Assembly (NCBI GenBank): GCA_018648265.1 | Contig: JABGRN010000014.1 | Coordinates: forward strand, 6,436-70,435 | Direction: 5' to 3' | From: Prolixibacteraceae bacterium | GTDB lineage: Bacteria; Bacteroidota; Bacteroidia; Bacteroidales; Prolixibacteraceae | Length of the DNA: 64,000 nt | Shown: piece after piece, positions 35,709-57,620 of the stretch | Position numbering within the stretch: the stretch's first letter is position 1 | Layout: each line of letters starts with the position of its first letter | Position numbers and translations under genes: made by a program | The notes under the pieces: model-generated | What the model was told of the DNA's origin: nothing | What the model saw: only the letters and a program-made list of their open reading frames with translations | Databases searched by the model: none

Positions 35709-36401
35709 TCAGTTTAAAGAATTAAATTTATACCCAACTCCTCTAACGCTAATAATGTATTTTGGGTCTGAAGGATTTTCTTCCAATTTTTTTCTGAGGT
35801 CGAGAATAAAATTATCTACAGTTCGCGTTGTTGGCATGGCTTCAAAACCCCAAACTTCGTTTAATAAATCGTGCCGGTGAACCGCTTTACCATCATGTAA
35901 AATTAAATATTCCATGATATCAAATTCTTTATTGGAGAGTTTAACCTCTCGATTTTGATAAAAAGCCTGAAGATTTTTAAAATCAAGTTTGACCTTACCA
36001 TAGGAAAAGCTGGTTAATGGTCCGGGTTCTTTGTTAATCCTGCGGAAAGCCGCTCTTATTCTGGCTAAAAGTTCGGGAAGGCTAAATGGTTTGGTTATAT
36101 AATCATCGGCACCGATATCCAATCCCGCCACTTTATCCATTTCCGATCCTCGGGCTGTAAGCATAATTACCGGTAAATCAGGTTTATCTTTTTTAATTTT
36201 ACGGCAAATCTCATAACCATTAATTCCGGGCAGCATTATATCTAATAACACCAGGTCAATCTCATTTTTCAAAGCCGTTTTTAATCCTTCTATTCCATTT
36301 GTTGCTGTGATAATGCTGTACTCTTCAAGTATTAAATTTTCTTCAAGCCCCAATAAAATATTAAGGTCGTCTTCAATTACTAAAATGACTTTTTTCTTCA
36401 T
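35709..36401 (-). CDS. OmpR/PhoB-family response regulator (module D, subfamily I)
   Basis: Receiver domain with LLDIMLPGINGYE and a C-terminal winged helix ...TRTVDNFILDLRKKLEENPSDPKYIISVRGVGYKF. Confidence 0.9.
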   Translation of the reverse strand: MKKKVILVIEDDLNILLGLEENLILEEYSIITATNGIEGLKTALKNEIDLVLLDIMLPGINGYEICRKIKKDKPDLPVIMLTARGSEMDKVAGLDIGADDYITKPFSLPELLARIRAAFRRINKEPGPLTSFSYGKVKLDFKNLQAFYQNREVKLSNKEFDIMEYLILHDGKAVHRHDLLNEVWGFEAMPTTRTVDNFILDLRKKLEENPSDPKYIISVRGVGYKFNSLN

Positions 36402-36411
36402 AATTAAGTGA

Positions 36412-38418
36412 TCAAGAATTTAACACGATTGTGAATTTACTGCCTTTATTTAATTCACTTGTAACTTTTAGTTCTCCATTATGGGCTTTAATAATATCCC
36501 CTGCAACTGTTAATCCTAAACCTGTTCCACTGGTTGTTTCATTTTCCTTACTTCTGACCCGATAGAATTTTTCAAAAATCAGCGAAATTTGATTTTTGGG
36601 AATACCAAGTCCTGTATCTTCAATTTCAATACTAATTTTATCCAATTGTTTTTTTAACCTGACAAATAAATTTTTATTAACCGAGGAATATTTTATAGCA
36701 TTTCCTATTAAGTTGGACAAAGCCTGCTTTATCGCTTCCGGGTCAACAAAAGCTTTTATATCTTCTTCAATTTCAATCGACACATTAAATTTATTTATTT
36801 CAAGCCAATATTCCATTTCATTTAGCACCAACTTTAATAATGCTGACAAATCAGTGTCCTGCAATTTGTATTTCGAACTCTCATTTTTCTTTACTGAATA
36901 TTCAAGTATATTATCAATTTTACGTTTTAGGTTTTCACTTTCTTTAATGATAATATTTGAATATTTTTTTCGCGAAGCTTCCGATTTTGCCTTGTCCAGA
37001 TAGATTGATTCAGCAAACATATTGATAGAAGTAAGTGGCGTTTTTAATTCATGCGTTACATTGGCAATAAATTCCGATTGCCGGGCTGCCATCCTTTTTT
37101 CCCTGTTAACATCTCTCAAAATCAAATTAACCCCCATTATCATTCCGCCAATCAGCAATGTAAGTGCAATTCCGTAAATCCAGCTTCTGCGGGTAACATA
37201 TTTTTTTATTATTGATTCGTTTTTTAATTTAAGCTGAATTACATAAGATGGAAAAAACATCGACAACGGTGTTATTGTTTCCAGACCATTAAAAGTGGAA
37301 TTGCTGTTGCTGTTTTCTGTCAGTTCAATCCGATATTCAAATTCCGTATCTCCCCATTTTATATTATTCAAAGTCATTTCCCATAAACTGTCGAGCGGAA
37401 CAGTAAATCCAAAAAGATTTTCGTGTTTGTGATTGATAAACAGGACCATTTCTGGATTCTGAACGAATCCGGGAATGATATAATAATCTCCTAATTTGAG
37501 TATACTTTCCAATTCGTCAACAATGGTGTATTTTCTGATTTGACTTCCGTATTCATTTACAAATGTAAGTTGTATTCTAATTTCCTGAATGAGTTCATTA
37601 ATAGACTGTAAACTTATATCTGAACCTCCCGGTATCCGTTCTGTCCATTTCCCAATCTGGTCAAGAATATTGCCGGTACTGTGATTTAAAAGTATTTCGC
37701 CGGATGCCATTCCTGCAAGACACTTTTCCAACTTTTTTAACAAGCTTTCAGGATTGTTGTTGCCGCTTATTTTAATAAGTTGTGGAATTGCATAATATAC
37801 AAAAGGGAAATTGTATTTGTCTGTTACGGAATAATATTTTGAAATGACAGTGCTATACAGATCAATGGCTTTATCTGTATTTTCCATTTTAACAGAAACC
37901 CTGGCCAGGGCATTGTAACATAAGGCAGAATCGTGTTTACTTACAGCAAATTTTAAAGCAGAGCGATAAGTCTTTTCTGCGTTGTTTAACTTTTGTGTTT
38001 TAAATTCCAATAATTCTGCTCTGTTATACTGAATCCTACATTTCCCGGAATTGTATTTTCCTGATTCTAATGGTAATCCTTCATTAAAAGGAGGCCATAA
38101 AAAATTTCCTTTTCTGTCGATGATAAACCAGTCGTTAATAAAAACGGGCTTTTGTAAAGTTGTAAAACGGTTAACATTAACCGTATCGGTTTCAGTAAGT
38201 TTTGCGAATGTGTCGCTTACTTCTTCAAGTACTTTATGGAAATTCAGGGCAAGATCCGCTGCAAATATTCCTTCTTCCTCCAAAACTTTTTTTTCTGTTA
38301 ATTCCTTTAGGTTCGAAATGTTACTTATGCTCAGATATGCAAGAATACCCGCCGAAATAAATACAGCGAGTATAAATACGATGGTCAATTTTAAAACAGG
38401 TTTTTCTCTGTTCTTCAT
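36412..38418 (-). CDS. Sensor histidine kinase with a large extracytoplasmic TPR-like domain (module D)
   Basis: TM1 near the N-terminus, a ~380-aa loop, and TM2 (SWIYGIALTLLIGGMIMGVNLIL). Catalytic motifs are the H-box VTHELKTPLTSI, N-box NLIGNAIKYS, G1 EDTGLGIP and G2 GTGLGLTV. Confidence 0.9.
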   Translation of the reverse strand: MKNREKPVLKLTIVFILAVFISAGILAYLSISNISNLKELTEKKVLEEEGIFAADLALNFHKVLEEVSDTFAKLTETDTVNVNRFTTLQKPVFINDWFIIDRKGNFLWPPFNEGLPLESGKYNSGKCRIQYNRAELLEFKTQKLNNAEKTYRSALKFAVSKHDSALCYNALARVSVKMENTDKAIDLYSTVISKYYSVTDKYNFPFVYYAIPQLIKISGNNNPESLLKKLEKCLAGMASGEILLNHSTGNILDQIGKWTERIPGGSDISLQSINELIQEIRIQLTFVNEYGSQIRKYTIVDELESILKLGDYYIIPGFVQNPEMVLFINHKHENLFGFTVPLDSLWEMTLNNIKWGDTEFEYRIELTENSNSNSTFNGLETITPLSMFFPSYVIQLKLKNESIIKKYVTRRSWIYGIALTLLIGGMIMGVNLILRDVNREKRMAARQSEFIANVTHELKTPLTSINMFAESIYLDKAKSEASRKKYSNIIIKESENLKRKIDNILEYSVKKNESSKYKLQDTDLSALLKLVLNEMEYWLEINKFNVSIEIEEDIKAFVDPEAIKQALSNLIGNAIKYSSVNKNLFVRLKKQLDKISIEIEDTGLGIPKNQISLIFEKFYRVRSKENETTSGTGLGLTVAGDIIKAHNGELKVTSELNKGSKFTIVLNS

Positions 38419-38433: not shown

Positions 38434-40653
38434 TTACTCCAAACCTTCCATCATCCAAAGCTGATTTTTCCGTGTTATAATATTATAAACCATATATTTT
38501 CCATCTTTACTCCAACTGGGAAGTGATTCATGAAAATTTGCATTCTTAGAAAAAAGGGATATTTCTTTTGACTTTGTATTATACTTGTATACCGATGATG
38601 TATTCTCGTAGTGTCCCTCGAAATAATAATACTCACCCTTAGGATCCCAGACACCTACATAGTCCCAAACATCTGGCTGATCTATCATTTCTGTAGTTGG
38701 GCTGCCGTCAACATAAGCTTCCCGGATACCATCCTCATCATTTTCAGGATCGTAATACATATAAGCCAGTTTTTTGCTGTCAGGATACCATCCAATACTC
38801 TCTTTATAGTTCCATTCTTCTTTGGGAGTTAATCTTTTCATTTCCCCGTTAAGCGTAGAAACAATAAAAATATCGTTATCTCGACCTTCTTCTTCCAAAA
38901 AAGCAAAACAAGCAATATACTTGCCATCGGGAGACCATCGTAAAGGAACATTTTCTTCCCATTTCCCATTTTCAACTACAGCTAATTTTTCAGCTTTATC
39001 ACTCCAGGCCGGAATAGTATATATGCTATTTCCAAGGGGGAAGGCAACCTTTTTACTGTCGGGCGACCAAGTGAGAAATGAACAATTAGCATTTTTATGA
39101 GTAACTGATTTCTCTAATCTTCCTGTATTTGTAGATAAAAAATAAAGTTCCTGAATTTCTTCCTCTTTTGTGGTAAAAAATGCCATCGTTGATCCATCAG
39201 GCGATAAAGCATAACAAGGCCAATCATGGATACCTTTACCTGGATTCATTTCGGTAAGCCTTTTTTTATCTCCTCCTAATCGATTAGCAGAATAAATACC
39301 ATCGTTGTTATTTCCTGCTTCAACATAATAGACGGTTGCCCCATCCGGCGACAGTATTGCACCATTTCCTGTTGCGATTGTTTTGTTACTATCGAGATTT
39401 TCATTTCCCAGGATTACTATTCGCCGTATTTCTTTCTGAAGGCCGTAAACTAATGTAGAATTATCCTTAATAATAACTGGTGAAAAGACATTAGCATTAT
39501 AATGAAAAGTTATTTGTTCCGCAACTCCAATTTTCTCCCCTGTTTCAGGATCTATTTTTATCTTAAAAATATTCCAATCCCCATTCCGATCTGAAATAAA
39601 ATAAAAAGAATAATCTGTTGCTGACCATGTTCCATACGCATTTCTTCCCATATTTTGCGTAAGCCTGATATTTTTATCTCCGGATGATGAGACTAGCCAG
39701 CAATCGATTTTATACCTGTTGTCCTCATTAGTACAGGAATAATACGAGATCCATTTACCGTCTGGTGAGTGAGATGTCAACCTCGGTACACACCAATCGT
39801 AATTCCAGGCTATTGTATTGGTAGTTTCCCCAGCCAGATTGTACGTTACGAGGCCTTTCTTTGAGTTTAAGGAAACAATATGTTTGCTATCCGGGTGCCA
39901 GCAAGAACCGTAGGATTCACCAGATTCACCAGACTTAAATTTTTCACTTATTTGTTTTAATACACCATTTTCCACATTAATCGCATAAAATGCCCATTCC
40001 CCTGTATCATTTCGCCCAGCAAATGAAATATTTTTCCCATCTGGTGAGAACTTGGGAAACAAAATCGTTTCAAATTGAAGAGAATTTGTCAGAAGGTCAA
40101 CGGGAGCCCCGGAAACATCGGCAATAAAAAGCCCAGGGTGAGAAATTGAATTTTCCATGTTTTTATGAACATCTTTGAAAACAATTTTTTTTCCGTCCGG
40201 TGAAAAATCAAACACATGTTCACCAAACCATGTTGATCCCTCTCTCATTGCCAAAGGTATTTGTGTAATTAAAGGTTTACCAGTGGTCTCTTTTTGAGTT
40301 GTATTTTGAATTCTTAAAACCTGAAGCCTGGTTTTAGCAATCTTCACAGATTGTTGCTGGTCGGCATATTGTTCAATTACTTTATTGTAGGCTTCCGTTG
40401 CCTGTTTTTTGCCCAGCTTTTCGTAACACAGTCCGATTTGGAGTTGAGCATTTGCCCGGAGCGACCTTTCAGCAACTGAGTTCTCAACAATTTTAGTGTA
40501 AATATCAATCGCTTGCTGAAGTGCCCCTTCACCCTCTTCTTTCATTAGCGCCTTTTGAAACAGTTGTTCCTGATTTTGCGAAACAACGGGTTCAATTGCA
40601 CACGTTGCCAGGATAAGCAACAATATCAATGATTTAATAACTTGTGTTTTCAT
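38434..40653 (-). CDS. Secreted TPR + PD40 (TolB-like) beta-propeller protein, 739 aa
   Basis: It has a signal peptide and an N-terminal TPR segment (EQLFQKALMKEEGEGALQQAIDIYTKIVEN...LQIGLCYEKLGK). I count about 11 PD40 blade motifs (FSPDGKKIVF, FSPDGKNISF, HSPDGKWISY, WSPDGKYIAC and others). There is no catalytic domain. Confidence 0.85.
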   Translation of the reverse strand: MKTQVIKSLILLLILATCAIEPVVSQNQEQLFQKALMKEEGEGALQQAIDIYTKIVENSVAERSLRANAQLQIGLCYEKLGKKQATEAYNKVIEQYADQQQSVKIAKTRLQVLRIQNTTQKETTGKPLITQIPLAMREGSTWFGEHVFDFSPDGKKIVFKDVHKNMENSISHPGLFIADVSGAPVDLLTNSLQFETILFPKFSPDGKNISFAGRNDTGEWAFYAINVENGVLKQISEKFKSGESGESYGSCWHPDSKHIVSLNSKKGLVTYNLAGETTNTIAWNYDWCVPRLTSHSPDGKWISYYSCTNEDNRYKIDCWLVSSSGDKNIRLTQNMGRNAYGTWSATDYSFYFISDRNGDWNIFKIKIDPETGEKIGVAEQITFHYNANVFSPVIIKDNSTLVYGLQKEIRRIVILGNENLDSNKTIATGNGAILSPDGATVYYVEAGNNNDGIYSANRLGGDKKRLTEMNPGKGIHDWPCYALSPDGSTMAFFTTKEEEIQELYFLSTNTGRLEKSVTHKNANCSFLTWSPDSKKVAFPLGNSIYTIPAWSDKAEKLAVVENGKWEENVPLRWSPDGKYIACFAFLEEEGRDNDIFIVSTLNGEMKRLTPKEEWNYKESIGWYPDSKKLAYMYYDPENDEDGIREAYVDGSPTTEMIDQPDVWDYVGVWDPKGEYYYFEGHYENTSSVYKYNTKSKEISLFSKNANFHESLPSWSKDGKYMVYNIITRKNQLWMMEGLE

Positions 40654-40686
40654 TTTAGTTTCCTCCTTATAATTAGTTTATAAGTA

Positions 40687-40755
40687 CAAAACTACTTTCA
40701 AATAACAGGCTCAGTGTCACATCTTTGTTTTGTAAATGTAAAATTACGTCACAAA
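40687..40755 (-). promoter_or_regulatory. Class I promoter/operator: -7 box plus 11-bp phased octamers upstream of the 739-aa propeller gene
   Basis: The box is CAAAACTA (40687-40694, reverse complement of TAGTTTTG). Octamers on the plus strand are TGTCACAT at 40715, TGTTTTGT at 40726, TGTAAAAT at 40737 and CGTCACAA at 40747. The offset from box end to first octamer is 21 nt. Confidence 0.5.
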
Positions 40756-40775
40756 ACGGTTAATGTGAAACCCGT

Positions 40776-41456
40776 TTATTTTACAAATTTATACCCAACT
40801 CCTCTAATGCTAATAATATGTTTAGGTTCCGAGGGATTTTCTTCCAGTTTTTTTCTGAGGTCAAGAATAAAATTATCAACTGTGCGTGTAGTGGGCATAG
40901 CTTCAAAACCCCAAACTTCGTTCAATAAATCGTGCCGGTGAACAGCTTCGCCTTCGTGTTTGATAAAATATTCCATTATTGCAAATTCCTTACTCGACAA
41001 TTTAATTTCCTGATTATCACGCGAAGCCTGATATTTTTTGAAATCTAATTTTACTTTTCCAAAAGAATATTGATCCGGAATAGGATTCGTCGGTGTCGTT
41101 CTTCTGAAAACAGCTCTTAGCCGCGCCAAAAGTTCAGGAATGCTGAATGGTTTAGTAACATAATCGTCTGCACCAATATCGAGTCCCGAAACTTTATCCA
41201 TTTCCGAGCCCCGGGCAGTAATCATGATTACGGGTAATTGAGGTTTTTCTTTTTTTACTCTTTTGCAAATTTCATATCCGTTTATTCCCGGCAACATGAT
41301 ATCAAGCAAAAGTAAATCCGGATTTTTCTCAAGAGCGGTTTGCAAACCCTTTTTCCCATTTGTTTCAGAAACAACGGCGTAACCTTCGTATTCCAAGTTA
41401 TCTTTTAATCCACGCAGAATACTAACATCGTCTTCTATAATTAATATTGTCTTCAC
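40776..41456 (-). CDS. OmpR/PhoB-family response regulator (module C, subfamily I)
   Basis: Its GTG start overlaps the kinase stop (GTGA). The C-terminal 53 aa differ at only 3 positions from the RR at 35709-36401. Confidence 0.9.
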   Translation of the reverse strand: MKTILIIEDDVSILRGLKDNLEYEGYAVVSETNGKKGLQTALEKNPDLLLLDIMLPGINGYEICKRVKKEKPQLPVIMITARGSEMDKVSGLDIGADDYVTKPFSIPELLARLRAVFRRTTPTNPIPDQYSFGKVKLDFKKYQASRDNQEIKLSSKEFAIMEYFIKHEGEAVHRHDLLNEVWGFEAMPTTRTVDNFILDLRKKLEENPSEPKHIISIRGVGYKFVK

Positions 41457-43474
41457 ACTTTTTCTGTTTGCCGATTTAAAGTTATAGAAAATTTACTTCC
41501 CCCACCTAATTTACTTTCAACAGATATTTTTCCTTTATGAGCTTCAATAATTTCTTTTACAACTGTTAACCCGAGTCCGGTTCCGCTAATGTTTTCTTTT
41601 TGGTCAACACGATAGAATTTCTCAAATATTTGCGACAATTGATTTTCAGGGATGCCGATTCCCTGGTCTTCAACCTCAATATGAATATTATTTGATGTTT
41701 TAAATAAACGAATAAAAATCTTTTTTGTGATGGTTGAATATTTTAACGCATTGCTAAGTAGATTGCTAATCGCTTGTTTCATTTTTTCAGGGTCAACTTC
41801 GGCAAATATATTTTCATCCATTTCAGCAAGCACCTCAAAGTTCTCTTTCTCAAACCAGTAATCAAACTGGTGAATTGACGCATTGATTATTGACGCCAGA
41901 TTTGAAGAAACAAAATGATATTCAGGTTTGCCCTTTTCCATTTTCGAAAATTCAAGAATATTATTTATCATCCTTTTCAACCTTTCACTCTCTTTTAAAA
42001 TTATTGATAGATATTCATCTTTGTCCGTCTCCTTTTTTACCCGTTTTAACAAAAGAGATTCTGCAAACATATAAATTGATGTGAGGGGTGTTTTTAATTC
42101 ATGAGTAACATTAGAAATAAAATCGGACTGTAACCGGGCTATTTGCTTTTCTCTTGCAATATCTCTGACAATTAAAGCAACTCCGAGAGACAACGCAACC
42201 AAAAGTAATGCGGTAGCAATCCCATAAATCCAACTTCTGCGTTTTATAAAATCGTTGATTAGGTTTTCATCGTTCAATTTGATTTGCATCATTTGCCCCG
42301 GAAAATAAGGATTCATTTGCGCAGTATAAATCAGGCTTTTTTCATTTGCATTTGAGGGATATCCTGGTAAAAATTCAATTTTATAATCAAATTCAAAAAC
42401 AGATTGAAGACCTTGATTTAAGACAGAATCAAATAGTTTTATACCATCTATTAAAAAGCCTACCGGATTCTCTAAATTTGTGTTGACCAGGAGCAATTTC
42501 TGACTGTTTCCTGAATATGAATTAATAACTCTAAAATCATTGTTGACATTTAAATAATTGTCCGGACTCTCTTTTTTCATTAACTCCAACATTGAATTTT
42601 TATATTCATCGATAAATTGAAGCTGTTTGTTAATTTTCTGTTCCAGTTTATTTACGTGAGCTAATTTTTCTGTGCTAATAAAACTGTTTTCCTGTGTCCA
42701 TTTTATAACGAGTGCTAATAATTCTTTTGTACCAAAATTCAGCGGAATAAAACCCGTTTCCATTTTTTCGAGACAGAATTCAAACAGTACCAATATTTCG
42801 TCACAGTTATCAGAATTTGAAATTTTTACAAGCTGTGGAATAGCATAATAAACATACAAAAGACCGTCAGATCCCGAAATATTAAAATAGTCCAAAACAA
42901 TATGTTTGTAATATCCGATTGCAATTTCCGGCTCTTTTAATTTTACAGAAACCCGGCCCAGTGCATTTAAAGCTTTAACCGAATCGTTTGCATTTTTTGA
43001 AAAACTCAGGCACGACAAATAATGTTTTTTAGCCGTTTTTAGATTATTACGAGCAAATTCATTTTCTTCACCATTTTTGAAAGCAGAAATATAACGACTT
43101 GAAAATTTAGGTAGAGTCATATTTTCAGATAATCCCATAAAATTTGGATAAAGAAAAGAGCCATTATTTTTTAAAATAAATGGCAGCGTAATAAAATTAT
43201 TTTCGGATGTTGTTTTTATGAGCGAATCTTTTAGTAAACCGGGCGGACTGATTTCATTTTTGAAACCACCGGTTACGGTTTCTATTTTATTTTGCATTAC
43301 AAGCGAAAACTTTGCAGCTAGTTCCCGTTGCTCCTCAGTAACTCTTCTTTCAGTCAGTTCTTTCAGGTTCGAAATACTGTTAATACTAAACCAGGTTAAT
43401 ATACTTCCCGAAATTACAACGGCAAGAATGAAAATAATTGTAAGTCGCGAAGCTGGTTTTAATTTTTGGTTCAT
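41453..43474 (-). CDS. Sensor histidine kinase with extracytoplasmic TPR-like domain (module C)
   Basis: Same architecture as 36412-38418. The H-box is VTHELKTPLTSI. The track start at 43477 is TTG; the ATG is at 43474. Confidence 0.9.
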   Translation of the reverse strand: MNQKLKPASRLTIIFILAVVISGSILTWFSINSISNLKELTERRVTEEQRELAAKFSLVMQNKIETVTGGFKNEISPPGLLKDSLIKTTSENNFITLPFILKNNGSFLYPNFMGLSENMTLPKFSSRYISAFKNGEENEFARNNLKTAKKHYLSCLSFSKNANDSVKALNALGRVSVKLKEPEIAIGYYKHIVLDYFNISGSDGLLYVYYAIPQLVKISNSDNCDEILVLFEFCLEKMETGFIPLNFGTKELLALVIKWTQENSFISTEKLAHVNKLEQKINKQLQFIDEYKNSMLELMKKESPDNYLNVNNDFRVINSYSGNSQKLLLVNTNLENPVGFLIDGIKLFDSVLNQGLQSVFEFDYKIEFLPGYPSNANEKSLIYTAQMNPYFPGQMMQIKLNDENLINDFIKRRSWIYGIATALLLVALSLGVALIVRDIAREKQIARLQSDFISNVTHELKTPLTSIYMFAESLLLKRVKKETDKDEYLSIILKESERLKRMINNILEFSKMEKGKPEYHFVSSNLASIINASIHQFDYWFEKENFEVLAEMDENIFAEVDPEKMKQAISNLLSNALKYSTITKKIFIRLFKTSNNIHIEVEDQGIGIPENQLSQIFEKFYRVDQKENISGTGLGLTVVKEIIEAHKGKISVESKLGGGSKFSITLNRQTEKV

Positions 43475-43595
43475 CAAGTGTTTTATGTATTCTTCATCTT
43501 TACGATTACATTTGCATCGTGTTTTTTATTACTGGCAAAGGGGAACCCGATTTTCTCGAATACCCCTTTCCATCGATTATTATTTTCGATTCCCT

Positions 43596-46500
43596 TTATT
43601 CATTCAGATTATAAATTTTGTTGAGCTCGTTAACCAAACCTTCTATCACCCTTACTTCGGTTATTCTTTCCCGTACTGAATATGAAATCTTTTCTCCTGA
43701 AGGATGCATAATAAACGATTCTGCTCCTTTGTCGGTTTTCCAAGTTTTCTCTGGCGTTCCTCCATTAGCATCAACTCTCCATAAATTGGTCCCCTCAGGT
43801 CTTTCTGAAAAATAAACATACTTGCCGTCCGGCGACCAAAAGGCCGAACCTGAAATATTCGATTCCTGTGACATACACAACTCCTTTTCATCTCCCCCTT
43901 GAGTTGAAATAGTCAATAAACGGCTCAGCTTTTCTCCTTTATTCTGAATGGCAAATAACAACTTATTACCATCCGGAGACAACTGAAAAACTCCCCTTAC
44001 AAATTTGGGATGCCGGTAAAGAATGGTATCTTTTCCAGTATTCAAATCATGTTTCACAATCCAATCATTTTGAAACAGCATATAAATAAATTGCTGATCA
44101 TCAGACACGACAATACCTGAGATTTCTAATGCATCATCAACGGAAGGAGTATATTCATAATCCGATATCAATAATTTCTGTTCTAAATTATTGGAATTTT
44201 TATCAACTTTATAAATACCTCCTTTATATCCTTTGTTTTGAAGCCTTTTCTTATCCATTCCAAAGATATAAACAGATTGTCCGTCATTCGACCAGTAAGG
44301 TCTCCTCACAGAAATAAGTTCTTCAACCACTCTCCTTTCATTTCCATTTTCTACATCACGTATAATAAGTTCCCAAGAACGTTTCCCCTCTTGCACTCGA
44401 GCCATGTATTTCCCATCAGGCGACCAATTTTTACTATAGATAGAGCCCGCCAGGGGGATTTCTGGTTTTCCTTCTGGTTTTCCTGTTAATTTATTTACAG
44501 GAAGAATATACGCGTTAAAATTTCGTTTGCGAAATCCAATAAAACATTCACCTTTTTCGGTGATTCCAACAGGTTCAACTTCACCAATCTCACTGAATAA
44601 TCGCCTTGGTTCTCCAGATGGTTTATCGTTTATAATTTGGATTGACCATAAATCCCATGTTCCCGACCGGTCGCTAATAAAAAGGAATTCATCCCTATTG
44701 GGAATCCAGCCAATAACTTTATCGTTTGCCGGATGAACAATCAGAGGAACTTCAACTTTTTCATCAATTGTTAACAAATAAATATCCGAATTGCTCTGAC
44801 CACCTTTTTTCGTGCTATACGCCAAAAAATTACCATCAGGAGAAACGCATAAGCCTGGCCACCCAGTTTTCAGTTCTTGAAATGTACCATCTAAAATATT
44901 GAATAATGTTACCTGAGACAATTCTTTATTTCTATCCCGCCTTATAACTATAATTTCATTGTCAGCTCGCCATGCAACAGGGTAAGCTTCAACTTTATCT
45001 TCTTTATAAAGTAGCTTAGATGAATTTTTTTCTATATCGAAAATATGCAGATCAAAAGTATGGTTTGGTCTCCACCAGGAATAAGCCACTTTTTTCCCAT
45101 TTTTTGATATTGCAGAGCCAATTACAAACTTTTCAGGATTCTCATCCAATGTAGCATTTTTTGTGAGTATCCTTTTTTCTCCGGTATTTAGATCAAGAAT
45201 TGCAAGCTCGCCATCCTCCCAATCTACAAAAGATAAATATCTACCATCTCTGGATACAGTCCCAAAATCATCTAAAAAGGGCTTTTTACCTATTTGCCGA
45301 ATTCTAATTCCTTCCGGTTCTTTGGAAGCTGTTTCTTCATTTTCAGAAGGGAGAAAATTATCCAGTTTCCATACTTCCGAGTTTAATTTATCTCTAGATG
45401 AATAGGAAAAGTGTTTTCCATCGGGGTGTGCATTTAAATTCGCAAAGTGACTATTCGTTTTTATTCCAAGCTTATCTATCTTTTGATTAGCAACTGAAAT
45501 ACGACACATTTCCAATTCAGAATTATTTACATCATTATTTCTCATTGCAAAATAGATGTATTTACCATCACTACTCCATGTCAAAGAAAGACCGCGGGGT
45601 TCAAATTCAAACTTTTTTACTTCTTCAGATTTTAAAAGTTCTTTGGATTCACCTCCTTTAACGGGTACAATCTTTAAACTTTTTGCATGACCGGCAAAAA
45701 GACCCAAAAAGGCACCATCTCGTGAAGCAGAAATACCAAAATAGGAACTGGATTGATACAATACCTGCTTTTTACCACTGTTGATATTTTGCAGAATTAC
45801 CTGGTACTCTCTTGTTATGCTATCGCGTAAGCCATAGAAAAAAGTATTACCATCGGATAGCCATCCATGGCCTCCAAATAAATCTCTGCTATTGGTAATT
45901 AGAAGTGGCTTGGGAATACCCGTGCGCGTGTCAATCTGATAATATCCAAAATTCCCATCTACGTTAAAACTAACCACCATAACTGAATTACCGTCAGGTG
46001 ACCATCTAGGCCAGCCAAATACATTGATATTCGGCCGGAATTCTCTTTCTTCTTTGGTTTCTAAAGAACGAATGCGTAAGACATTACCAACCGGATTGGT
46101 TGTAAAACTCATTGTTCCGGGAGGACGCCGGGAAACATATGCCAGGTATTTTCCATCGGGCGAATAATCAGGACAACCATTTGCCCCTATGTAACTTTGT
46201 ATTATTCTTGTCGGGGTAGTAATAATTTCACCTGTTAATGGATCAATTTCAGTTTCATAAATATTTATATTGTTTCTTCGTTGCCCATAATAAAAAGATC
46301 CATTATTTGTAAAACCAAGGTTTATTGGAGGGAAAGGCCCCTTATTACTTTTGACAAGTTCAGCCTCACCTAAACTTTTCCCATTTTGCACTTTAACCCG
46401 CCAAAAATCAGGAGTACCGGTTCTGTCACTAATAAACAGTATATCATTTCCATTGGGCACCCTTCCCACTAATCTATCATCTCCCGGATGTTCAATTAAT

Positions 46501-47465
46501 TTGGTTTCATTTTTTGTATCCAGTTCCATGATATAAATGTCCTTGTTGCCTTTATCGTCTTTTTGAGGAAGATCGTAAATTACGTAACGTTGATCATGCG
46601 AAAAAGAGGCACCACTGGTATAACCTGATCTCAGAGCCCTTTCAGAACCGTCGTTTAAAGAGATAAGTGTCAATATTCCTTTATCGTTTTTTCTATCCAG
46701 GCAAGCCAATACATATTTCCCGTCCCGGGAACATTCGTAAATTTCCGCCCATTCCATTTCCTTGTCTTTTATCAAAGTTTCCGGCTCCTGATTATCTATG
46801 TTGATGGTACGCAATTCTGCAATCCCCTCTTCTTCATTATACCACAGATAAATGATTCTTTTACCGTCGGGAAACCATCTGGAATATTCACAATATGATG
46901 GGGATTTTTCCCACGAACCCTTATTGGTTAATCTTCGTTTTTTACCTGTCGCTATTTCGTAAAGAGCCAGATCCCCTGTATCCCAATCAACATAAGAAAG
47001 ATATTTTCCATCGGGTGAAACAGCACCTTCCAAGTCTGTATCAGATTCATCCCAAATTTTTTTGTTGGTTAGTGTTCTTTTTAATATCTCCTCTTCCTTC
47101 TTCTTTACTGTTTTTTGATTGTCCATAATTAAACGGTTCAATCGTGTTCGTGCTATCGCCACCTCCTGCTTCTCTCCCGGGAAATTATTTACCAGTTGCT
47201 GATAGGCTTTCAAAGCTTCCTCTTTGCCCAGTTTTTCGTAGCACATTCCAACGTGCAGCAATGCTTTTGCCTGCAACGATTGATCCGCATTTTGGTTTTC
47301 TACTATTAAATTATAAATGTTGATAGCTTCCACCAGGTTTCCTTCGCCTTCTTCTTTCATAAGGCCTTTTTGATACAACTGCTCAGGTGTCTGGGCCATT
47401 AAAGGATAAACACTTCCAACAACCAAGAAAATTACGAGAATAAGATTAATGGATAAAGTTTTCAT
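43596..47465 (-). CDS. Secreted TPR + multi-propeller PD40 protein, 1289 aa
   Basis: Signal peptide ..YPLMA-QT and TPR segment PEQLYQKGLMKEEGEGNLVEAINIYNLIVEN. I count about 24 PD40 motifs. An internal unit boundary, VWKLDNFLPSENEE, lies near nt 45345. Confidence 0.85.
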   Translation of the reverse strand: MKTLSINLILVIFLVVGSVYPLMAQTPEQLYQKGLMKEEGEGNLVEAINIYNLIVENQNADQSLQAKALLHVGMCYEKLGKEEALKAYQQLVNNFPGEKQEVAIARTRLNRLIMDNQKTVKKKEEEILKRTLTNKKIWDESDTDLEGAVSPDGKYLSYVDWDTGDLALYEIATGKKRRLTNKGSWEKSPSYCEYSRWFPDGKRIIYLWYNEEEGIAELRTINIDNQEPETLIKDKEMEWAEIYECSRDGKYVLACLDRKNDKGILTLISLNDGSERALRSGYTSGASFSHDQRYVIYDLPQKDDKGNKDIYIMELDTKNETKLIEHPGDDRLVGRVPNGNDILFISDRTGTPDFWRVKVQNGKSLGEAELVKSNKGPFPPINLGFTNNGSFYYGQRRNNINIYETEIDPLTGEIITTPTRIIQSYIGANGCPDYSPDGKYLAYVSRRPPGTMSFTTNPVGNVLRIRSLETKEEREFRPNINVFGWPRWSPDGNSVMVVSFNVDGNFGYYQIDTRTGIPKPLLITNSRDLFGGHGWLSDGNTFFYGLRDSITREYQVILQNINSGKKQVLYQSSSYFGISASRDGAFLGLFAGHAKSLKIVPVKGGESKELLKSEEVKKFEFEPRGLSLTWSSDGKYIYFAMRNNDVNNSELEMCRISVANQKIDKLGIKTNSHFANLNAHPDGKHFSYSSRDKLNSEVWKLDNFLPSENEETASKEPEGIRIRQIGKKPFLDDFGTVSRDGRYLSFVDWEDGELAILDLNTGEKRILTKNATLDENPEKFVIGSAISKNGKKVAYSWWRPNHTFDLHIFDIEKNSSKLLYKEDKVEAYPVAWRADNEIIVIRRDRNKELSQVTLFNILDGTFQELKTGWPGLCVSPDGNFLAYSTKKGGQSNSDIYLLTIDEKVEVPLIVHPANDKVIGWIPNRDEFLFISDRSGTWDLWSIQIINDKPSGEPRRLFSEIGEVEPVGITEKGECFIGFRKRNFNAYILPVNKLTGKPEGKPEIPLAGSIYSKNWSPDGKYMARVQEGKRSWELIIRDVENGNERRVVEELISVRRPYWSNDGQSVYIFGMDKKRLQNKGYKGGIYKVDKNSNNLEQKLLISDYEYTPSVDDALEISGIVVSDDQQFIYMLFQNDWIVKHDLNTGKDTILYRHPKFVRGVFQLSPDGNKLLFAIQNKGEKLSRLLTISTQGGDEKELCMSQESNISGSAFWSPDGKYVYFSERPEGTNLWRVDANGGTPEKTWKTDKGAESFIMHPSGEKISYSVRERITEVRVIEGLVNELNKIYNLNE

Positions 47466-47499
47466 TTTACATTCCTCCGAATTAAATTTAACAACTAAG

Positions 47500-47568
47500 C
47501 AAAATTAATTCGTTATAAGAAGCTCATTGTCATACGGATGTATAAGTTATGTAAAAATTGTGTCATGG
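47500..47568 (-). promoter_or_regulatory. Class I promoter/operator upstream of the 1289-aa propeller gene
   Basis: The box is CAAAATTA (47500-47507). Octamers are TGTCATAC at 47528, TGTATAAG at 47539, TGTAAAAA at 47550 and TGTCATGG at 47561, an exact 11-bp period. The offset is 21 nt. Confidence 0.5.
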
Positions 47569-47872
47569 CAAATTATTATTTGGAGTAAAGAGTTGTGAGT
47601 AGTTAAGTAGTAAGTAAAGAGTAAAAAGTCGTAAGATTGAAAATAACAACTATTTGTTAAAGACGACAAACCTTTTTATAAATATTATTGGCTCTGGCCT
47701 TTTAGTAAGTAATTTCCAAAAGTGATGCCATTCCTAAATTAAAGTAAAAACGTTTTCATCTTTTTAATTCACTGCTGGTGAGGAAGTCATCCTTATTCTG
47801 TGAAATACGAAACTTTGCAAAATTTTAGGGAATCATTCCCTTTTTTTACATTAATCGTAAAACAAGAACCGT

Positions 47873-47910
47873 ATAAAAAAACAGCCGGAAATTTTTGCTT
47901 CCGGCTGTCT
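47873..47910 (-). terminator. Terminator hairpin T1 after the beta-helix gene
   Basis: acagccggaa atttttgc ttccggctgt is a perfect 10-bp stem at 47881-47908. On the minus strand it is followed by TTTTTT. Confidence 0.7.
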
Positions 47911-47941
47911 GTAATTTGAATTAGATTTTTATTAAATTATA

Positions 47942-49981
47942 TTATTTATTGTGTAATATTTTACCATTAAATATTTCTTCACCAAGAATCATTCGGTAAA
48001 CGTAATAGCAATCTCTATTAATTTCAGAACTAAACTCAATTTTATAAGGAATTCCTTTTATAACCGGATTATTGAAAACGGTTTTTACCAGGCGACCAGT
48101 CGCATCGAACAAATCAATTCGGGCATGAGTGGTTTCCTGCGAATTAAACTCAAAGAATACTTTGTTGTTAAATGGATTTGGATAAACCTGAAGCCCAATA
48201 TTTTCCTTATCCACTAAATTGTCTTGTAAAATCTGAGCAGATTTATTTTTTACAGAATGGATAACAATTGAACCACCCCCAATTTCGGTTGCTGCTTCGG
48301 CTGTTTCATCTGCAAAAATATTATTATCGTATATTACATTATCTCCGTCATCTTTGTCCCAGATTTTAATTCTGAATTTATCTATTAATGAACCAGGAGT
48401 TAATTCCGCATCAACTGCACTCAACATAAAACCGTAATTACCTGAATCGTTAATTGTTCCAACTCCCCTGAACTGAGCTTTAGCACCTGCAATTATTAAC
48501 CAATCGTATTTAGTACTTTTAAATTTCAGATTGCCGGTATTAATATGAAACCGGGTGTTACCAACAGGTTTTATTTGTCCCTTTTTATATTTTGAAACAA
48601 ATCCGAAGTTGACCTTACCCGATAAATCTGGAGCAGCAACAAATGCACCTTCCGGCGACATTATCCATCCACCACCAGTAACAAAACCTGCTGTCGGATC
48701 ATAGACTACAACATACTGGTAAGTTTTACTGTCTGATTCATCAAATTCATCTATTACAGTTACAGTTACAGAATAAATGCCGGGGGTAATATAAATATGA
48801 TTCTTCTGGAAAGGAGTAGAAAGATTTTCAGAGTAAACTATGGGAGGATTTCCGTCTCCCCAATCAATTGTAATACTGGTCACATTGTCCTCATTGTCTG
48901 TGTATTCTATTTCCAATGTTATTTCTGTATCGATTTGAACCGGGTCAACTGGTGCAAAAACGGAAGTAATAACAGGTGGTGTATTAAATAAGGATTGCAT
49001 TAATGGGTAATTATCTTTATTGTTATTAAAAGTGTAAGGTGTATCCCCAATCCCATCATTATTTGAATCTACACCTGTATAGTCATTATAATAATTTCCA
49101 CCAGAGGGGTATCCGTTATCCCAGATATTGGTACTGTAATCATCCTGAGCTTGAACCGTATTGTCAATAAAGTCATTATGGTAAACCCTATTGTTTGTTA
49201 CTCTTGGTTCATGAAACCTAACTCCCACTGAATTATGGCTTATAATATTATTTCTAATCGTATTGGAACTCCCAACATAGCCAACCTCTACACCGCATCC
49301 ATTATCATGAATATTATTTTTCTCAATGATTGAATTAAACATTGAGTCAAAATGAATACTTGTGCCATTATTGTGATGAACGTTATTGTTTGTTATCAAG
49401 GTATTGGATCCCCATGAAACAGATAGACCACTACTATTACCAACTATTTCATTATTTCTAATAATGCAATTGTTAAATTGGTGAGCATACGATACTCCAA
49501 TATTATTTGATATGATGCAGTCTTCAATAAGGAGATACCCCCCACTGCGTGTGAGATTTAATCCCACTTGGTTCAAAGTAATTATAACATCTTTTATTGT
49601 AACATGATTAATAGAATAGTTGGGAATAGACTTTATCCCAATTTCTCCGTTGGCTACAGTTAATCCACTAATCGTTATATCGTTCGCGGTAACATATATA
49701 ACTTGCCCACTTCCGCTACCATCGATAATAGTAGTCTCTCTATCTTCTCCTTGTAAAGTCAAAGACTTATTTATCGTTACATATTCATAGTAGGTTCCTG
49801 CCTGCACATATACTTCATCACCCACGCCGGCAGCATTTACTGCCTGTTGAATTGTTGGATAGTCAACAGGAACTGTTATAGTTGTTGCATTTGTAATTTT
49901 AGGTAATATCAATGCAATTGCAATTGCCAAAAATATTACACAAAATCTAACTTTTATTATTTTAGTATTCTTGTTTTCCAT
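47942..49981 (-). CDS. Secreted right-handed parallel beta-helix (NosD/CASH-like) + PKD-like protein with T9SS C-terminal sorting domain
   Basis: After the signal peptide come TITVPVDYPTIQQAVNAAGVGDEVYVQAGTYYE, repeated N-I-x-x-N beta-helix turns, and DSNNDGIGDTPY. A PKD-like motif, DWGDGNP, follows. The C-terminus, LQVYPNPFNNKVFFEF...ATGRLVKTVF, is typical of a T9SS CTD. Confidence 0.8.
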   Translation of the reverse strand: MENKNTKIIKVRFCVIFLAIAIALILPKITNATTITVPVDYPTIQQAVNAAGVGDEVYVQAGTYYEYVTINKSLTLQGEDRETTIIDGSGSGQVIYVTANDITISGLTVANGEIGIKSIPNYSINHVTIKDVIITLNQVGLNLTRSGGYLLIEDCIISNNIGVSYAHQFNNCIIRNNEIVGNSSGLSVSWGSNTLITNNNVHHNNGTSIHFDSMFNSIIEKNNIHDNGCGVEVGYVGSSNTIRNNIISHNSVGVRFHEPRVTNNRVYHNDFIDNTVQAQDDYSTNIWDNGYPSGGNYYNDYTGVDSNNDGIGDTPYTFNNNKDNYPLMQSLFNTPPVITSVFAPVDPVQIDTEITLEIEYTDNEDNVTSITIDWGDGNPPIVYSENLSTPFQKNHIYITPGIYSVTVTVIDEFDESDSKTYQYVVVYDPTAGFVTGGGWIMSPEGAFVAAPDLSGKVNFGFVSKYKKGQIKPVGNTRFHINTGNLKFKSTKYDWLIIAGAKAQFRGVGTINDSGNYGFMLSAVDAELTPGSLIDKFRIKIWDKDDGDNVIYDNNIFADETAEAATEIGGGSIVIHSVKNKSAQILQDNLVDKENIGLQVYPNPFNNKVFFEFNSQETTHARIDLFDATGRLVKTVFNNPVIKGIPYKIEFSSEINRDCYYVYRMILGEEIFNGKILHNK

Positions 49982-50221
49982 TTTGAAGTTTTTTAATTTT
50001 TAAAGTAAATTTTCATTCATACTAAAGGTTTGTGAATGTTACTATTGTAGCCATTTAAGAATTGTTTTTGAAGAAATAAATAATACCACGAATCGTTAGG
50101 AATTAACTGCAAGTATTTTTTATGGCGAGCGAATTCTTTTCATATTCTACTCTTTAAGTTTTTCGGAAAAACCAATAATGCAATTAGATACGGAGAAAGA
50201 GCTTTCTAAATAATTTTTATT

Positions 50222-50290
50222 CAAAATTAAGGTGAACGGAAATGTCAGTTGTCATAAACATGTATTAGTTGTGTAAAAGTTGTGTCATGT
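50222..50290 (-). promoter_or_regulatory. Class I promoter/operator about 240 nt upstream of the beta-helix gene
   Basis: The box is CAAAATTA (50222-50229). Octamers are TGTCATAA at 50250, TGTATTAG at 50261, TGTAAAAG at 50272 and TGTCATGT at 50283. The offset is 21 nt. About 80 percent of positions match 47528-47568. Confidence 0.45.
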
Positions 50291-50314
50291 CCATTTCTAA
50301 ACTCAACAATACAA

Positions 50315-50340
50315 CAGCGGGAAACTTTTGCTACCGGCTG
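50315..50340 (-). terminator. Terminator hairpin T2 after the 1329-aa propeller gene
   Basis: cagcgggaaacttttgctaccggctg is a near-copy of T3 and T4. The downstream T-tract on the minus strand is weaker here. Confidence 0.5.
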
Positions 50341-50375
50341 CCTGTTATTTTGATTTTAAATTCTAATTGATTGTT

Positions 50376-57501: not shown

Positions 57502-57524
57502 ATTCAGATTCCAGCGGGAATTAC

Positions 57525-57556: not shown

Positions 57557-57620
57557 CCTGTTTTGCTAATATAATTTCTAATTGATTTCAGCATTAGCTT
57601 CACTTTTGTTTGTTAATGGT

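What the first reader, a model, noticed from the sequence alone, without database searches (positions are those of the whole stretch)
40687..50290. Class I promoter architecture shared by three units: -7 box, 21-nt offset, then four octamers on an exact 11-bp period
Three genes carry a CAAA(A)(T/C)TA box upstream, which is the reverse complement of the Bacteroidota -7 consensus TAnnTTTG. They are the 739-aa propeller gene, the 1289-aa propeller gene and the beta-helix gene.

In each case the first of four TGT-anchored octamers begins exactly 21 nt from the box end, and the octamers are spaced 11, 11 and 10-11 nt apart:
- 40715-40754: TGTCACAT, TGTTTTGT, TGTAAAAT, CGTCACAA.
- 47528-47568: TGTCATAC, TGTATAAG, TGTAAAAA, TGTCATGG.
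- 50250-50290: TGTCATAA, TGTATTAG, TGTAAAAG, TGTCATGT.

Direct repeats on a one-helical-turn period, abutting the position of the -33 promoter element, are what OmpR/PhoB-family activator sites look like.

The two subfamily I regulators (35709-36401 and 40776-41456) have nearly identical DNA-binding domains. They are therefore the natural candidates to bind all three sites. That would place the T9SS beta-helix protein in their regulon.
Basis: partly seen in the sequence, partly recalled or inferred. Interest (0 to 1): 0.65.

Follow-up and report, generated by a model that had tools for sequence, protein, structure and literature searches.

The report
Response-regulator binding sites in three promoters
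Three promoters in this Prolixibacteraceae genome share four 11-bp-spaced repeats set exactly 20 bases upstream of the promoter box; comparison with many other genomes indicates these are docking sites for the neighbouring OmpR-type regulators, a well-known kind of switch found here in an unstudied regulator family.

Summary
Three minus-strand promoters (upstream of 38434-40653, 43596-47465 and 47942-49981) carry a TAnnTTTG -7 box, a 20-nt spacer, and then four direct repeats, (A/G)TGACA / WAWACA / TTTACA / RTGAC(A/G), spaced 11, 11 and 10-11 bp.

Nothing else in the 64-kb window resembles them (28-34 bits against at most 10.6). The combined pattern is very rare in 596 Gb of genomes: 21 hits, almost all in Bacteroidota or Ignavibacteriota.

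Those hits, and 39 metagenome hits, mostly lie in one of two places. Either they sit just upstream of homologous propeller-kinase-regulator operons, or just downstream of an OmpR-family regulator whose recognition helix is TTRTVDN(F/Y)IL.LRKK. Both local regulators share that helix exactly.

Loci chosen only by that helix show about 40-fold enrichment of the repeats next to the regulator gene, with the promoter "TA" exactly 20 nt away in 17 of 22 cases.

An ortholog of the beta-helix gene keeps the whole promoter, and in other lineages beta-helix domains are fused to the propeller.

The best reading is an OmpR/PhoB-style operator overlapping the -33 position, giving autoregulation plus control of a T9SS cargo gene. 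It is a new member of a known kind. Binding, transcription start sites and the direction of regulation are untested.

The parts
40687..40694 (-). -7 box TAGTTTTG of the promoter for the 739-aa propeller operon. Inferred TSS is about 40682.
   Evidence: The box occupies -12 to -5 according to PMC9723704. The TSS is inferred.
40715..40754 (-). Site 1. Four direct repeats on the gene strand, distal to proximal: GTGACG-N4-TTTACA-N5-AAAACA-N5-GTGACA. A possible fifth repeat, TTAACC, lies at 40758-40763.
   Evidence: 27.8 bits. Conserved upstream of orthologous operons in L001 and L004, including the 10-bp R1-R2 spacing.
47500..47507 (-). -7 box TAATTTTG of the promoter for the 1289-aa propeller operon. 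Inferred TSS is about 47495.
47528..47568 (-). Site 2. ATGACA-N5-TTTACA-N5-TATACA-N5-ATGACA.
   Evidence: 30.9 bits. Near-identical elements lie upstream of P_C-like operons in L029, L114, L119, L122, L144 and L148.
50222..50229 (-). -7 box TAATTTTG upstream of the beta-helix gene. Inferred TSS is about 50217.
   Evidence: It is the only TAnnTTTG on this strand in the intergenic region.
50250..50290 (-). Site 3. ATGACA-N5-TTTACA-N5-AATACA-N5-ATGACA.
   Evidence: 33.7 bits. Conserved upstream of the beta-helix ortholog in L234.
49982..50216 (-). Inferred leader of about 236 nt for the beta-helix mRNA. It contains a 7-codon uORF, MKRIRSP*, at 50120-50143.
   Evidence: It is 84% identical to the L234 leader, against 74% for the coding sequence. 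No Rfam match and no stable fold (z = +1.2).
47942..49981 (-). Beta-helix (NosD-like) + PKD protein with a signal peptide and a T9SS C-terminal sorting domain. Proposed regulon member.
43596..47465 (-). P_C: exported TPR + PD40/Tricorn-like beta-propeller protein, 1289 aa. First gene of unit C.
41453..43477 (-). HK_C: sensor histidine kinase. Two membrane segments flank a periplasmic domain of about 385 aa.
40776..41456 (-). RR_C: OmpR-family response regulator with recognition helix TTRTVDNFILDLRKK.
38434..40653 (-). P_D: exported TPR + PD40 propeller protein, 739 aa. First gene of unit D.
36412..38418 (-). HK_D: sensor histidine kinase with a TPR-containing periplasmic domain.
35709..36401 (-). 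RR_D: OmpR-family response regulator with the same recognition helix as RR_C.
50310..50343 (-). Hairpin after the 1329-aa propeller gene, immediately upstream of site 3. One of a four-copy hairpin family.
   Evidence: (family D9). Also present upstream of the element in L234.

Best explanation
The three elements are operators for the TVDN(F/Y)-type OmpR-family regulators encoded next to them, RR_C (40776-41456) and RR_D (35709-36401). They are built into Bacteroidota sigma-A promoters.

Proposed mechanism:
- If the TAnnTTTG box sits at -12 to -5, the four hexamers occupy about -38/-33, -49/-44, -60/-55 and -71/-66.
- Two head-to-tail regulator dimers would then lie on one face of the helix, with the promoter-proximal monomer on the -33 element. 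This is the class-II geometry used by PhoB and by B. subtilis PhoP.
- The periplasmic TPR-domain kinases would phosphorylate the regulators and drive binding. The most likely outcome is activation.
- Targets would be the regulators' own propeller-kinase-regulator operons (positive autoregulation at sites 1 and 2) and the monocistronic T9SS beta-helix gene (site 3).

Shown here: the sequence architecture, its rarity, its conservation, and its co-occurrence with this regulator subfamily.

Inferred: the transcription start sites, binding, activation as opposed to repression, and which regulator acts at which site.
For: Architecture and rarity:
- Exact architecture in all three sites.
- No similar site elsewhere in the window.
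- The strict 23-base pattern gives 21 hits in 596 Gb of genomes. I estimate fewer than 0.2 expected by chance. Almost all hits are in Bacteroidota or Ignavibacteriota. There are 39 more in metagenomes.

Location of the hits:
- Many lie 25-45 nt upstream of an ATG of PD40 propeller genes that are followed by HK_C-like and RR_C-like genes (L013, L026, L114, L119, L122, L140, L144).
- Others lie directly after regulators carrying the helix TTRTVDN[FY]IL.LR.K (L011, L021, L023, L027, L028, L116, L118, L123, L128, L129).
- Stand-alone orthologous P_D-HK_D-RR_D operons keep the element (L001, L004).

Unbiased tests:
- Among 80 loci chosen by the regulator helix alone, 12/79 have a site of at least 15 bits within 300 nt downstream of the regulator gene on the same strand. 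The figure is 17/4544 for other windows and 2/77 for RR_A/B-type control loci.
- In those hits, TA starts exactly 20 nt after the proximal repeat in 17/22 (p about 1e-13).

Supporting points:
- The box position of -12 to -5 comes from PMC9723704.
- RR_C and RR_D are identical across the recognition helix and differ there from RR_A and RR_B, which have their own different 11-bp repeats nearby.
- The beta-helix ortholog L234 keeps the promoter.
- Propeller-beta-helix fusion proteins are encoded after kinase-regulator pairs. Their promoters carry GTGACA-N4-GAGACA-N5-TTTACA-N5-TTGACA-N17-TATAAT.
- 11-nt direct-repeat units are the documented binding mode of this protein family (PMC2275107, PMC4832192).
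Against: - There are no binding, TSS or expression data.
- The proximal repeat may be the -33/-35 element itself. It is TTGACA in several relatives and forms a perfect sigma-70 promoter in L229-L231. Occupancy there could therefore repress.
- Class-I-like elements also occur next to RR_B-like regulators (L014/L164). They also occur upstream of the class-II repeats of HK_A-like and HK_B-like operons in relatives, there without a -7 box at 20 nt. Regulator-to-site assignment is therefore not strictly one-to-one.
- Site 3 is 241 nt from its gene.
- A more distant beta-helix homolog (L233, 49% identity) has no such site.
- The control locus set is more GC-rich than the test set (55% against 48%).
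Confidence: 0.75

Rival explanations
1. The same sites are bound by the same regulators, but they act as repressor operators. A regulator sitting on the -33 element would exclude RNA polymerase, giving negative autoregulation.
For: - The proximal repeat coincides with the -33/-35 position.
- In relatives it reads TTGACA. In L229-L231 it forms TTGACA-N17-TATAAT, a promoter that should need no activator.
- From my own knowledge, not tested here: OmpR-family proteins such as B. subtilis PhoP repress some promoters.
Against: - In the window the proximal hexamers are ATGACA or GTGACA, not a TTG-containing -33 element. That is consistent with activator-dependent promoters.
- From my own knowledge: four in-phase direct repeats ending at the -35 position is the classic activating geometry for PhoB and for B. 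subtilis PhoP.
- Placing the operator ahead of the regulator's own operon is typical of positive feedback in two-component systems.
Confidence: 0.12
2. The elements are bound by a different protein from RR_C or RR_D. Candidates are the other OmpR paralogues in the cluster (RR_A, RR_B) or an unlinked factor. The similarity to the RR_C/D neighbourhood would then reflect shared ancestry of a multi-unit island.
For: - Class-I-like elements lie beside RR_B-like kinase-regulator operons (L014/L164).
- They also lie upstream of HK_A-like and HK_B-like operons in L149, L151 and L161.
- Class I and class II half-sites share a TGACA/ACA core.
Against: - In Ignavibacteriota loci that lack the multi-unit island, the element directly follows a TVDN(F/Y) regulator of only 45-50% identity.
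- Control loci chosen by the RR_A/B helix show 2/77, against 12/79 for the RR_C/D helix.
- RR_A and RR_B have their own distinct repeats at their own promoters. Those repeats score below 10 bits with the class I matrix.
Confidence: 0.08
3. The shared sequence is only inherited promoter DNA, copied along with paralogous gene duplications or left as a relic, and the repeats have no regulatory role.
For: - Sites 1 and 2 precede paralogous genes.
- In L029 a class I promoter is followed by a degenerate propeller gene start.
- In L149 and L151 class-I-like elements lack a correctly spaced -7 box.
- Whole promoter-leader regions are conserved among close orthologs, not only the repeats.
Against: - The hexamers and the 20-nt phase persist across phyla while the spacers and downstream genes change. 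Downstream genes include lipoproteins, small HEAT-like proteins and T9SS cargo.
- Sites 2 and 3 share 36 of the 44 element positions but only 3-7 of each 11-nt block of flank, apart from the -7 box.
- The element is enriched specifically beside one regulator subfamily.
Confidence: 0.05

Closest known systems
Bacillus subtilis PhoP core binding region: four TT(A/T/C)ACA-like repeats with 11-bp periodicity on the coding strand of Pho-activated promoters. From my own knowledge; not retrieved from the paper library.
   Same: - Hexamers of the xTxACA type.
- Four copies, consistent with two dimers.
- 11-bp period.
- Same orientation relative to transcription.
- The array ends at the -35 region.
   Different: - The regulators here are not PhoP or PhoB orthologs; all named equivalog models score below cut-off.
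- No pst or pho genes are nearby.
- The promoter is of the Bacteroidota -33/-7 type.
- The regulon is propeller/kinase operons plus a T9SS cargo gene.
E. coli PhoB pho box: two 7-bp CTGTCAT repeats with 4-bp spacers, taking the place of the -35 element. From my own knowledge.
   Same: - TGTCA core.
- 11-bp direct repeats.
- Overlap with the -35 position.
- Winged-helix OmpR-family regulator.
   Different: - TGTCAT reads on the template strand here, so the orientation relative to transcription is opposite.
- Four repeats rather than two.
- RR_C scores 210 bits against the PhoB model cut-off of 296, and 186 against 270 for the Bacteroidetes PhoB model.
Streptomyces coelicolor PhoP 11-nt direct repeat units (PMC2275107) and M. 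tuberculosis PhoP 7-bp repeats with a 4-bp spacer (PMC4832192)
   Same: Operators built from variable numbers of 11-nt direct repeat units, bound by cooperative head-to-tail dimers.
   Different: - Different half-site sequence and a different phylum.
- Those sites were demonstrated experimentally; these are predicted.
M. tuberculosis RegX3 (PDB 2oqr), the closest solved structure to RR_C
   Same: Full-length match, E = 8e-51, with the same two-domain OmpR architecture.
   Different: - No orthology is implied.
- The TVDNF recognition-helix signature and the TPR-kinase and propeller partners are specific to the family described here.

Membership tests
OmpR/PhoB-family response-regulator operator | The cognate regulator has a receiver domain plus a winged-helix Trans_reg_C domain. 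| tested here: met
   Pfam: Response_reg 102-109 bits and Trans_reg_C 86-88 bits for both regulators.
OmpR/PhoB-family response-regulator operator | Direct (head-to-tail) repeats of a 6-7 bp half-site, with centre-to-centre spacing of 10-11 bp. | tested here: met
   Spacing 11/11/10 and 11/11/11. Consensus from 57 distinct sites.
OmpR/PhoB-family response-regulator operator | Operator and regulator co-occur across genomes. | tested here: met
   A DNA-only scan lands beside TVDN(F/Y) regulators. A regulator-only selection gives 12/79, against 17/4544 background and 2/77 in the control subfamily.
OmpR/PhoB-family response-regulator operator | Physical, phosphorylation-enhanced binding of the regulator to the repeats. 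| not testable with these tools
   Needs EMSA, footprinting or DAP-seq.
Class II (-35-overlapping) activator-dependent promoter | The proximal half-site abuts or overlaps the -35/-33 element at a fixed phase to the -10/-7 element. | tested here: met
   20 nt between the proximal repeat and TAnnTTTG in 3/3 window sites. TA at exactly 20 nt in 17/22 unbiased hits. Box position from PMC9723704.
Class II (-35-overlapping) activator-dependent promoter | Transcription depends on the activator, and the TSS lies at the predicted position. | not testable with these tools
   No transcriptome or reporter data are available.
Bacteroidota sigma-A promoter (-33 TTG / -7 TAnnTTTG) | TAnnTTTG box about 5-12 nt upstream of the TSS, plus TTG 17-23 nt further upstream. 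| tested here: inconclusive
   The box is present at all three sites. The -33 position holds ATG or GTG inside the proximal repeat rather than TTG. Spacing rule from preprint 10.1101/172254. The box alone is frequent: 102 copies in the window.
Pho regulon (PhoB/PhoR) | The regulator and kinase reach the PhoB/PhoR equivalog thresholds. | tested here: not met
   RR_C scores 210 against 296 (TIGR02154) and 186 against 270 (Bacteroidetes PhoB). HK_C scores 126 against 500 (Bacteroidetes PhoR).
T9SS cargo (for the beta-helix protein) | N-terminal signal peptide plus a C-terminal Por_Secre_tail sorting domain. | tested here: inconclusive
   The N-terminus is hydrophobic. Por_Secre_tail scores 24.6 bits, below the gathering score of 27. 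PF18962 is listed in the precomputed domains for this protein and for its orthologs.

The most novel reading that the evidence does not exclude
The three sites may be the visible part of an undescribed and widespread envelope-sensing module in Bacteroidota, Ignavibacteriota and related phyla.

The module would consist of:
- an exported TPR + beta-propeller protein;
- a sensor kinase with a periplasmic TPR domain;
- a TVDN(F/Y)-type OmpR regulator.

Its operator code (four T(T/G)ACA-type repeats, 11-bp period, ending 20 nt before the -7 box) would be readable from sequence. That would allow regulon prediction in uncultured bacteria.

In this genome, four paralogous modules with distinct operator classes would form a wired island. 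The island would also control a T9SS-secreted beta-helix protein through a conserved uORF-containing leader.
Probability: 0.35. Interest if true: 0.55.

Novelty: new member of a known kind. Interest (0 to 1): 0.4.

Why it matters
Regulator-operator pairs are almost unknown for two-component systems of Bacteroidota and Ignavibacteriota. How activators engage the unusual -33/-7 promoters of this group has also hardly been described.

This result gives three things:
- a sequence-level operator model with a fixed phase to the -7 box;
- a recognisable signature in the regulator (TVDN[F/Y]I);
- a set of conserved targets: propeller-kinase-regulator operons, small lipoproteins and T9SS cargo.

Together these make regulon prediction possible in uncultured genomes. 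They also provide concrete probes for EMSA and reporter experiments. The mechanism itself is the textbook OmpR/PhoB one, so it is a useful annotation and not a surprise.

Tried and rejected
- Searches for relatives of the 739-aa propeller in GTDB genomes found nothing useful, either with the single protein or with a 13-sequence alignment. Protein-database orthologs and their contigs were used instead.
- Rfam found nothing in the cluster or in the site 3 leader.
- The leader is not more stable than shuffled sequence (z = +1.2). A two-sequence consensus fold gave one compensatory pair only. A structured leader RNA was therefore not supported.
- I tested whether the leader is a relic of the about 135-aa lipoprotein gene that occupies the equivalent slot in relatives. 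tblastn found no significant match.
- A sigma-70-type promoter scan showed no enrichment (82 found against 72.8 +/- 7.6 expected), as expected for this phylum.
- The putative terminator between RR_C and site 1 is not significant (z = 0.14), so read-through into unit D cannot be excluded.
- A mobile-element or MITE reading was rejected. There are no inverted repeats or repeated flanks, only three copies, all are in the promoter position and orientation, and similarity is confined to the element.
- Pho regulon membership was rejected on model thresholds.
- Literature searches found no description of this propeller/TPR-kinase/OmpR system or of its operator.
Full report
**Source and gene layout**

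The window comes from contig JABHML010000048.1 of a Prolixibacteraceae MAG, GCA_018694395.1. Its GC content is 35.7%.

From 35.7 kb to the end of the window, the minus strand carries an array of paralogous units. Each unit is built from three proteins:
- an exported TPR + PD40/Tricorn-like beta-propeller protein (P);
- a sensor kinase (HK) with two membrane segments flanking a periplasmic domain of about 385 aa, which contains TPR repeats;
- an OmpR-family regulator (RR).

In transcription order the array reads:
- P (63053-63979, continuing beyond the window);
- HK_A 60503-62626, RR_A 59817-60506, P_A 57621-59723;
- HK_B 55292-57406, RR_B 54451-55140, P_B 50376-54365;
- the beta-helix/PKD/T9SS-tail gene (BH) 47942-49981;
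- P_C 43596-47465, HK_C 41453-43477, RR_C 40776-41456;
- P_D 38434-40653, HK_D 36412-38418, RR_D 35709-36401.

**The observation**

On the gene strand each site reads as four hexamers, a 20-nt spacer, and then TAnnTTTG.

| Site | Repeats (distal to proximal) | -7 box |
|---|---|---|
| 1 | GTGACG-N4-TTTACA-N5-AAAACA-N5-GTGACA | TAGTTTTG |
| 2 | ATGACA-N5-TTTACA-N5-TATACA-N5-ATGACA | TAATTTTG |
| 3 | ATGACA-N5-TTTACA-N5-AATACA-N5-ATGACA | TAATTTTG |

- A three-repeat-plus-box pattern finds only these three places, against 0.02 expected.
- A half-site matrix summed over four phased positions scores them 27.8-33.7 bits. The next unrelated site in the window scores 10.6.
- The other intergenic regions of the array also have 11-bp direct repeats, but of different sequence. 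Unit B has CTTGAC repeats and unit A has TTCACA/TTAACA repeats. They do not score with the class I matrix.
- Sites 2 and 3 are alike inside the element and at the box, but not in their other flanks.
- At sites 1 and 2 the box lies 34-35 nt from an ATG preceded by GGAGG. At site 3 it lies 241 nt from the ATG of the beta-helix gene. No other box is present in that intergenic region.

**The regulators**

All four RRs have Response_reg and Trans_reg_C domains.

RR_C and RR_D are 72% identical overall and 79% over the DNA-binding domain. They are 100% identical over 39 residues that include the recognition helix, TTRTVDNFILDLRKK. RR_B has APRTVDTHILNLRKK and RR_A has SPRTVDTHIAKLRKK. At the DNA level, the segment encoding the DNA-binding domain is more conserved between RR_C and RR_D than the receiver segment (81% against 71%).

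Neither regulator reaches any named equivalog threshold, PhoB included. The closest solved structure is RegX3.

**Comparative evidence, from DNA to protein**

I scanned 596 Gb of species-representative genomes for the strict pattern TGAC-N6/7-TTACA-N8-ACA-N6-TGACA-N20-TANNTTTG. It has 23 specified bases, and I estimate fewer than 0.2 chance hits. The scan gave 21 hits, nearly all in Bacteroidota or Ignavibacteriota. The metagenome collection gave 39 more.

No protein information went into these scans, yet most hits fall into two classes.

- Class (a): 25-45 nt upstream of the ATG of a PD40 propeller gene. Where the contig is long enough, that gene is followed by HK_C-like and RR_C-like genes (73-76% identity). 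Examples are L013, L026, L114, L119, L122, L140 and L144.
- Class (b): directly downstream of an OmpR-family RR of only 45-50% identity, and upstream of an unrelated exported protein. Examples are L011, L021, L023, L027, L028, L116, L118, L123, L128 and L129.

The RRs next to these hits carry (T/S)TRTVDN(F/Y)IL.LR.K; L028 has the variant NSRTVDNFIVRLRHK.

Orthologs of P_D found through the protein database sit in other genomic contexts as stand-alone P-HK-RR operons. They keep the element, including the 10-bp R1-R2 spacing of site 1.

**Comparative evidence, from protein to DNA**

I selected 80 loci solely by a DNA-binding domain of the TVDN(F/Y) type. I scanned them with the matrix built from the window sites plus L001 and L004.

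| Region scanned | Sites of at least 15 bits |
|---|---|
| 300 nt downstream of the RR gene, same strand (test loci) | 12 of 79 |
| All other 300-nt windows in the test loci | 17 of 4544 |
| Same region in 80 RR_A/B-type control loci | 2 of 77 |

The control set is more GC-rich than the test set.

The matrix contains no promoter information. Even so, in the 22 best hits a TA begins exactly 20 nt after the proximal repeat in 17 cases, and TAnnTT is present in 14 (binomial p about 1e-13). The repeats are therefore part of a promoter architecture with a fixed phase.

**Geometry and mechanism**

The sigma-A box TAnnTTTG occupies -12 to -5 in Flavobacterium (PMC9723704). The -33 TTG lies 17-23 nt upstream of it (cited in preprint 10.1101/172254).

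The hexamers therefore fall at about -38/-33, -49/-44, -60/-55 and -71/-66. This fits two head-to-tail dimers on one helical face, with the proximal monomer on the -33 element. Inferred transcription starts are 40682, 47495 and 50217.

11-nt direct-repeat units are the established binding mode of this protein family (PMC2275107, PMC4832192). From my own knowledge, the closest analogue is the four-repeat TT(A/T/C)ACA core region of B. subtilis PhoP-activated promoters.

I consider activation the likelier outcome, but it is not shown. In some relatives the proximal repeat is TTGACA. In a lineage with sigma-70-type promoters it forms TTGACA-N17-TATAAT. That is compatible with either activation or repression.

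**Wiring**

Sites 1 and 2 precede P-HK-RR operons, which implies autoregulation. Site 1 also lies directly after RR_C, the arrangement typical of class (b). The hairpin between RR_C and site 1 is not significant. Unit D may therefore be driven by RR_C, by RR_D, or by read-through from unit C. Which regulator acts where cannot be resolved from sequence.

**The beta-helix gene**

BH is bracketed by a hairpin at 50310-50343 and a strong terminator at 47879-47910. It has its own class I promoter.

- Its closest ortholog with flanking DNA is L234 (62% protein identity, 74% coding DNA identity). L234 retains the hairpin, the four repeats (R3 reads TATACC), the box and the leader. The leader is 84% identical.
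- A more distant homolog, L233 (49% identity), follows a 1251-aa protein but has no class I site.
- In relatives, the equivalent slot after a propeller gene holds other small exported genes behind a class I promoter. L016, L138, L142 and L146 have a lipoprotein of about 135 aa. L029 has a 152-aa T9SS-tail protein behind a degenerate propeller start.
- Many homologs of the beta-helix domain are 800-860-aa TPR-propeller-beta-helix fusions. Three of those examined are encoded immediately after an HK-RR pair.

Together these points support a functional link between the beta-helix protein and these systems, and its membership of the regulon in this lineage.

**Complications**

- In L149, L151 and L161, class-I-like elements lie 45-150 nt upstream of the class II repeats of HK_A-like and HK_B-like operons, without a correctly spaced box.
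- In L014/L164 a class-I-like promoter is divergent from an RR_B-like operon.

These may be relics, or sites of cross-regulation between units. Either way, operator classes and regulator subfamilies are not perfectly partitioned.

**Comparison with known systems, and verdict**

This works like an OmpR/PhoB class II operator and meets every sequence-testable criterion for one. It is not part of the Pho regulon. Literature searches found no description of this propeller/TPR-kinase/OmpR system or of its operator.

I rate it a new member of a known kind. It is a well-supported and useful regulatory annotation for an uncharacterised and widespread regulator subfamily. The mechanism is not surprising. 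Confidence that these are the operators of RR_C/RR_D-type regulators is 0.75. Interest is 0.4.

Noticed in passing
window 49982-50216 (minus strand); uORF 50120-50143; L234 174-404: The inferred leader of about 236 nt for the beta-helix gene is more conserved than the coding sequence (84% against 74% nucleotide identity with L234). It contains a conserved 7-codon uORF, M(K/Y)RIRSP-stop, with a synonymous AGA-to-CGA change. There is no Rfam hit and no stable fold, so its function is unknown.
   Followed up: partly
window 47880-47942, 50313-50375, 57529-57591, 62842-62904; also L234 41-70: A four-copy family of near-identical hairpins, CAGCCGG.AGCAAAAGTTTCC.GCTG, follows the stop codons of three propeller genes and of the beta-helix gene. 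Only the copy after the beta-helix gene meets the terminator criteria.
   Followed up: partly
window 54385-54445, 57470-57520, 59740-59800, 62690-62740 (minus strand): Units A and B have their own 11-bp direct repeats. Unit B has CTTGAC(A) repeats and unit A has TTCACA/TTAACA repeats. They lie ahead of both the kinase-regulator operon and the downstream propeller gene, which suggests separate operator classes for RR_A and RR_B.
   Followed up: partly
window 40660-40672 and 47472-47484; many related loci: A strong GGAGG Shine-Dalgarno-like motif lies 8-9 nt before the ATG of the propeller genes. It is conserved in relatives, including Prolixibacteraceae. Bacteroidota mRNAs are reported generally to lack SD sequences (PMC6847099).
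   Followed up: no
window 43534-43571 (minus strand): A very stable hairpin (-26.5 kcal/mol for the 121-nt intergenic region, z = -4.2) lies between P_C and HK_C and has no U-tract. It may be an attenuator or an mRNA stability element that sets the propeller-to-kinase ratio.
   Followed up: partly
L229 4696-7269, L230 7001-9487, L231 7001-9520: Proteins of 828-857 aa fuse the TPR-propeller module to a NosD-like beta-helix. They are encoded directly after kinase-regulator pairs whose regulator helix is TRTIDNHILKLRKK. Their promoters carry GTGACA/GAGACA/TTTACA/TTGACA repeats in which the last repeat serves as a consensus -35.
   Followed up: partly
L149 8790-8976; L151 250-520 and 7370-7556; L161 3190-3376: In related Bacteroidales MAGs, a class-I-like element without a correctly spaced -7 box lies 45-150 nt upstream of the class II repeats of HK_A-like and HK_B-like operons. 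This may reflect cross-regulation between paralogous units, or promoter relics.
   Followed up: partly
window 47597-47624; L149 8530-8640; L161 10190-10260: Short low-complexity tandem repeats lie just upstream of class I elements. The window has AGTAGTTA/GAGTAAGTAAA units. Relatives have TAGTCTCT and GCCGTTAT units.
   Followed up: no
L029 4351-5061: In a close relative, a promoter like site 2 is followed by a degenerate propeller gene start and then a 152-aa protein with a T9SS sorting tail. This shows turnover of the gene placed behind class I promoters.
   Followed up: partly
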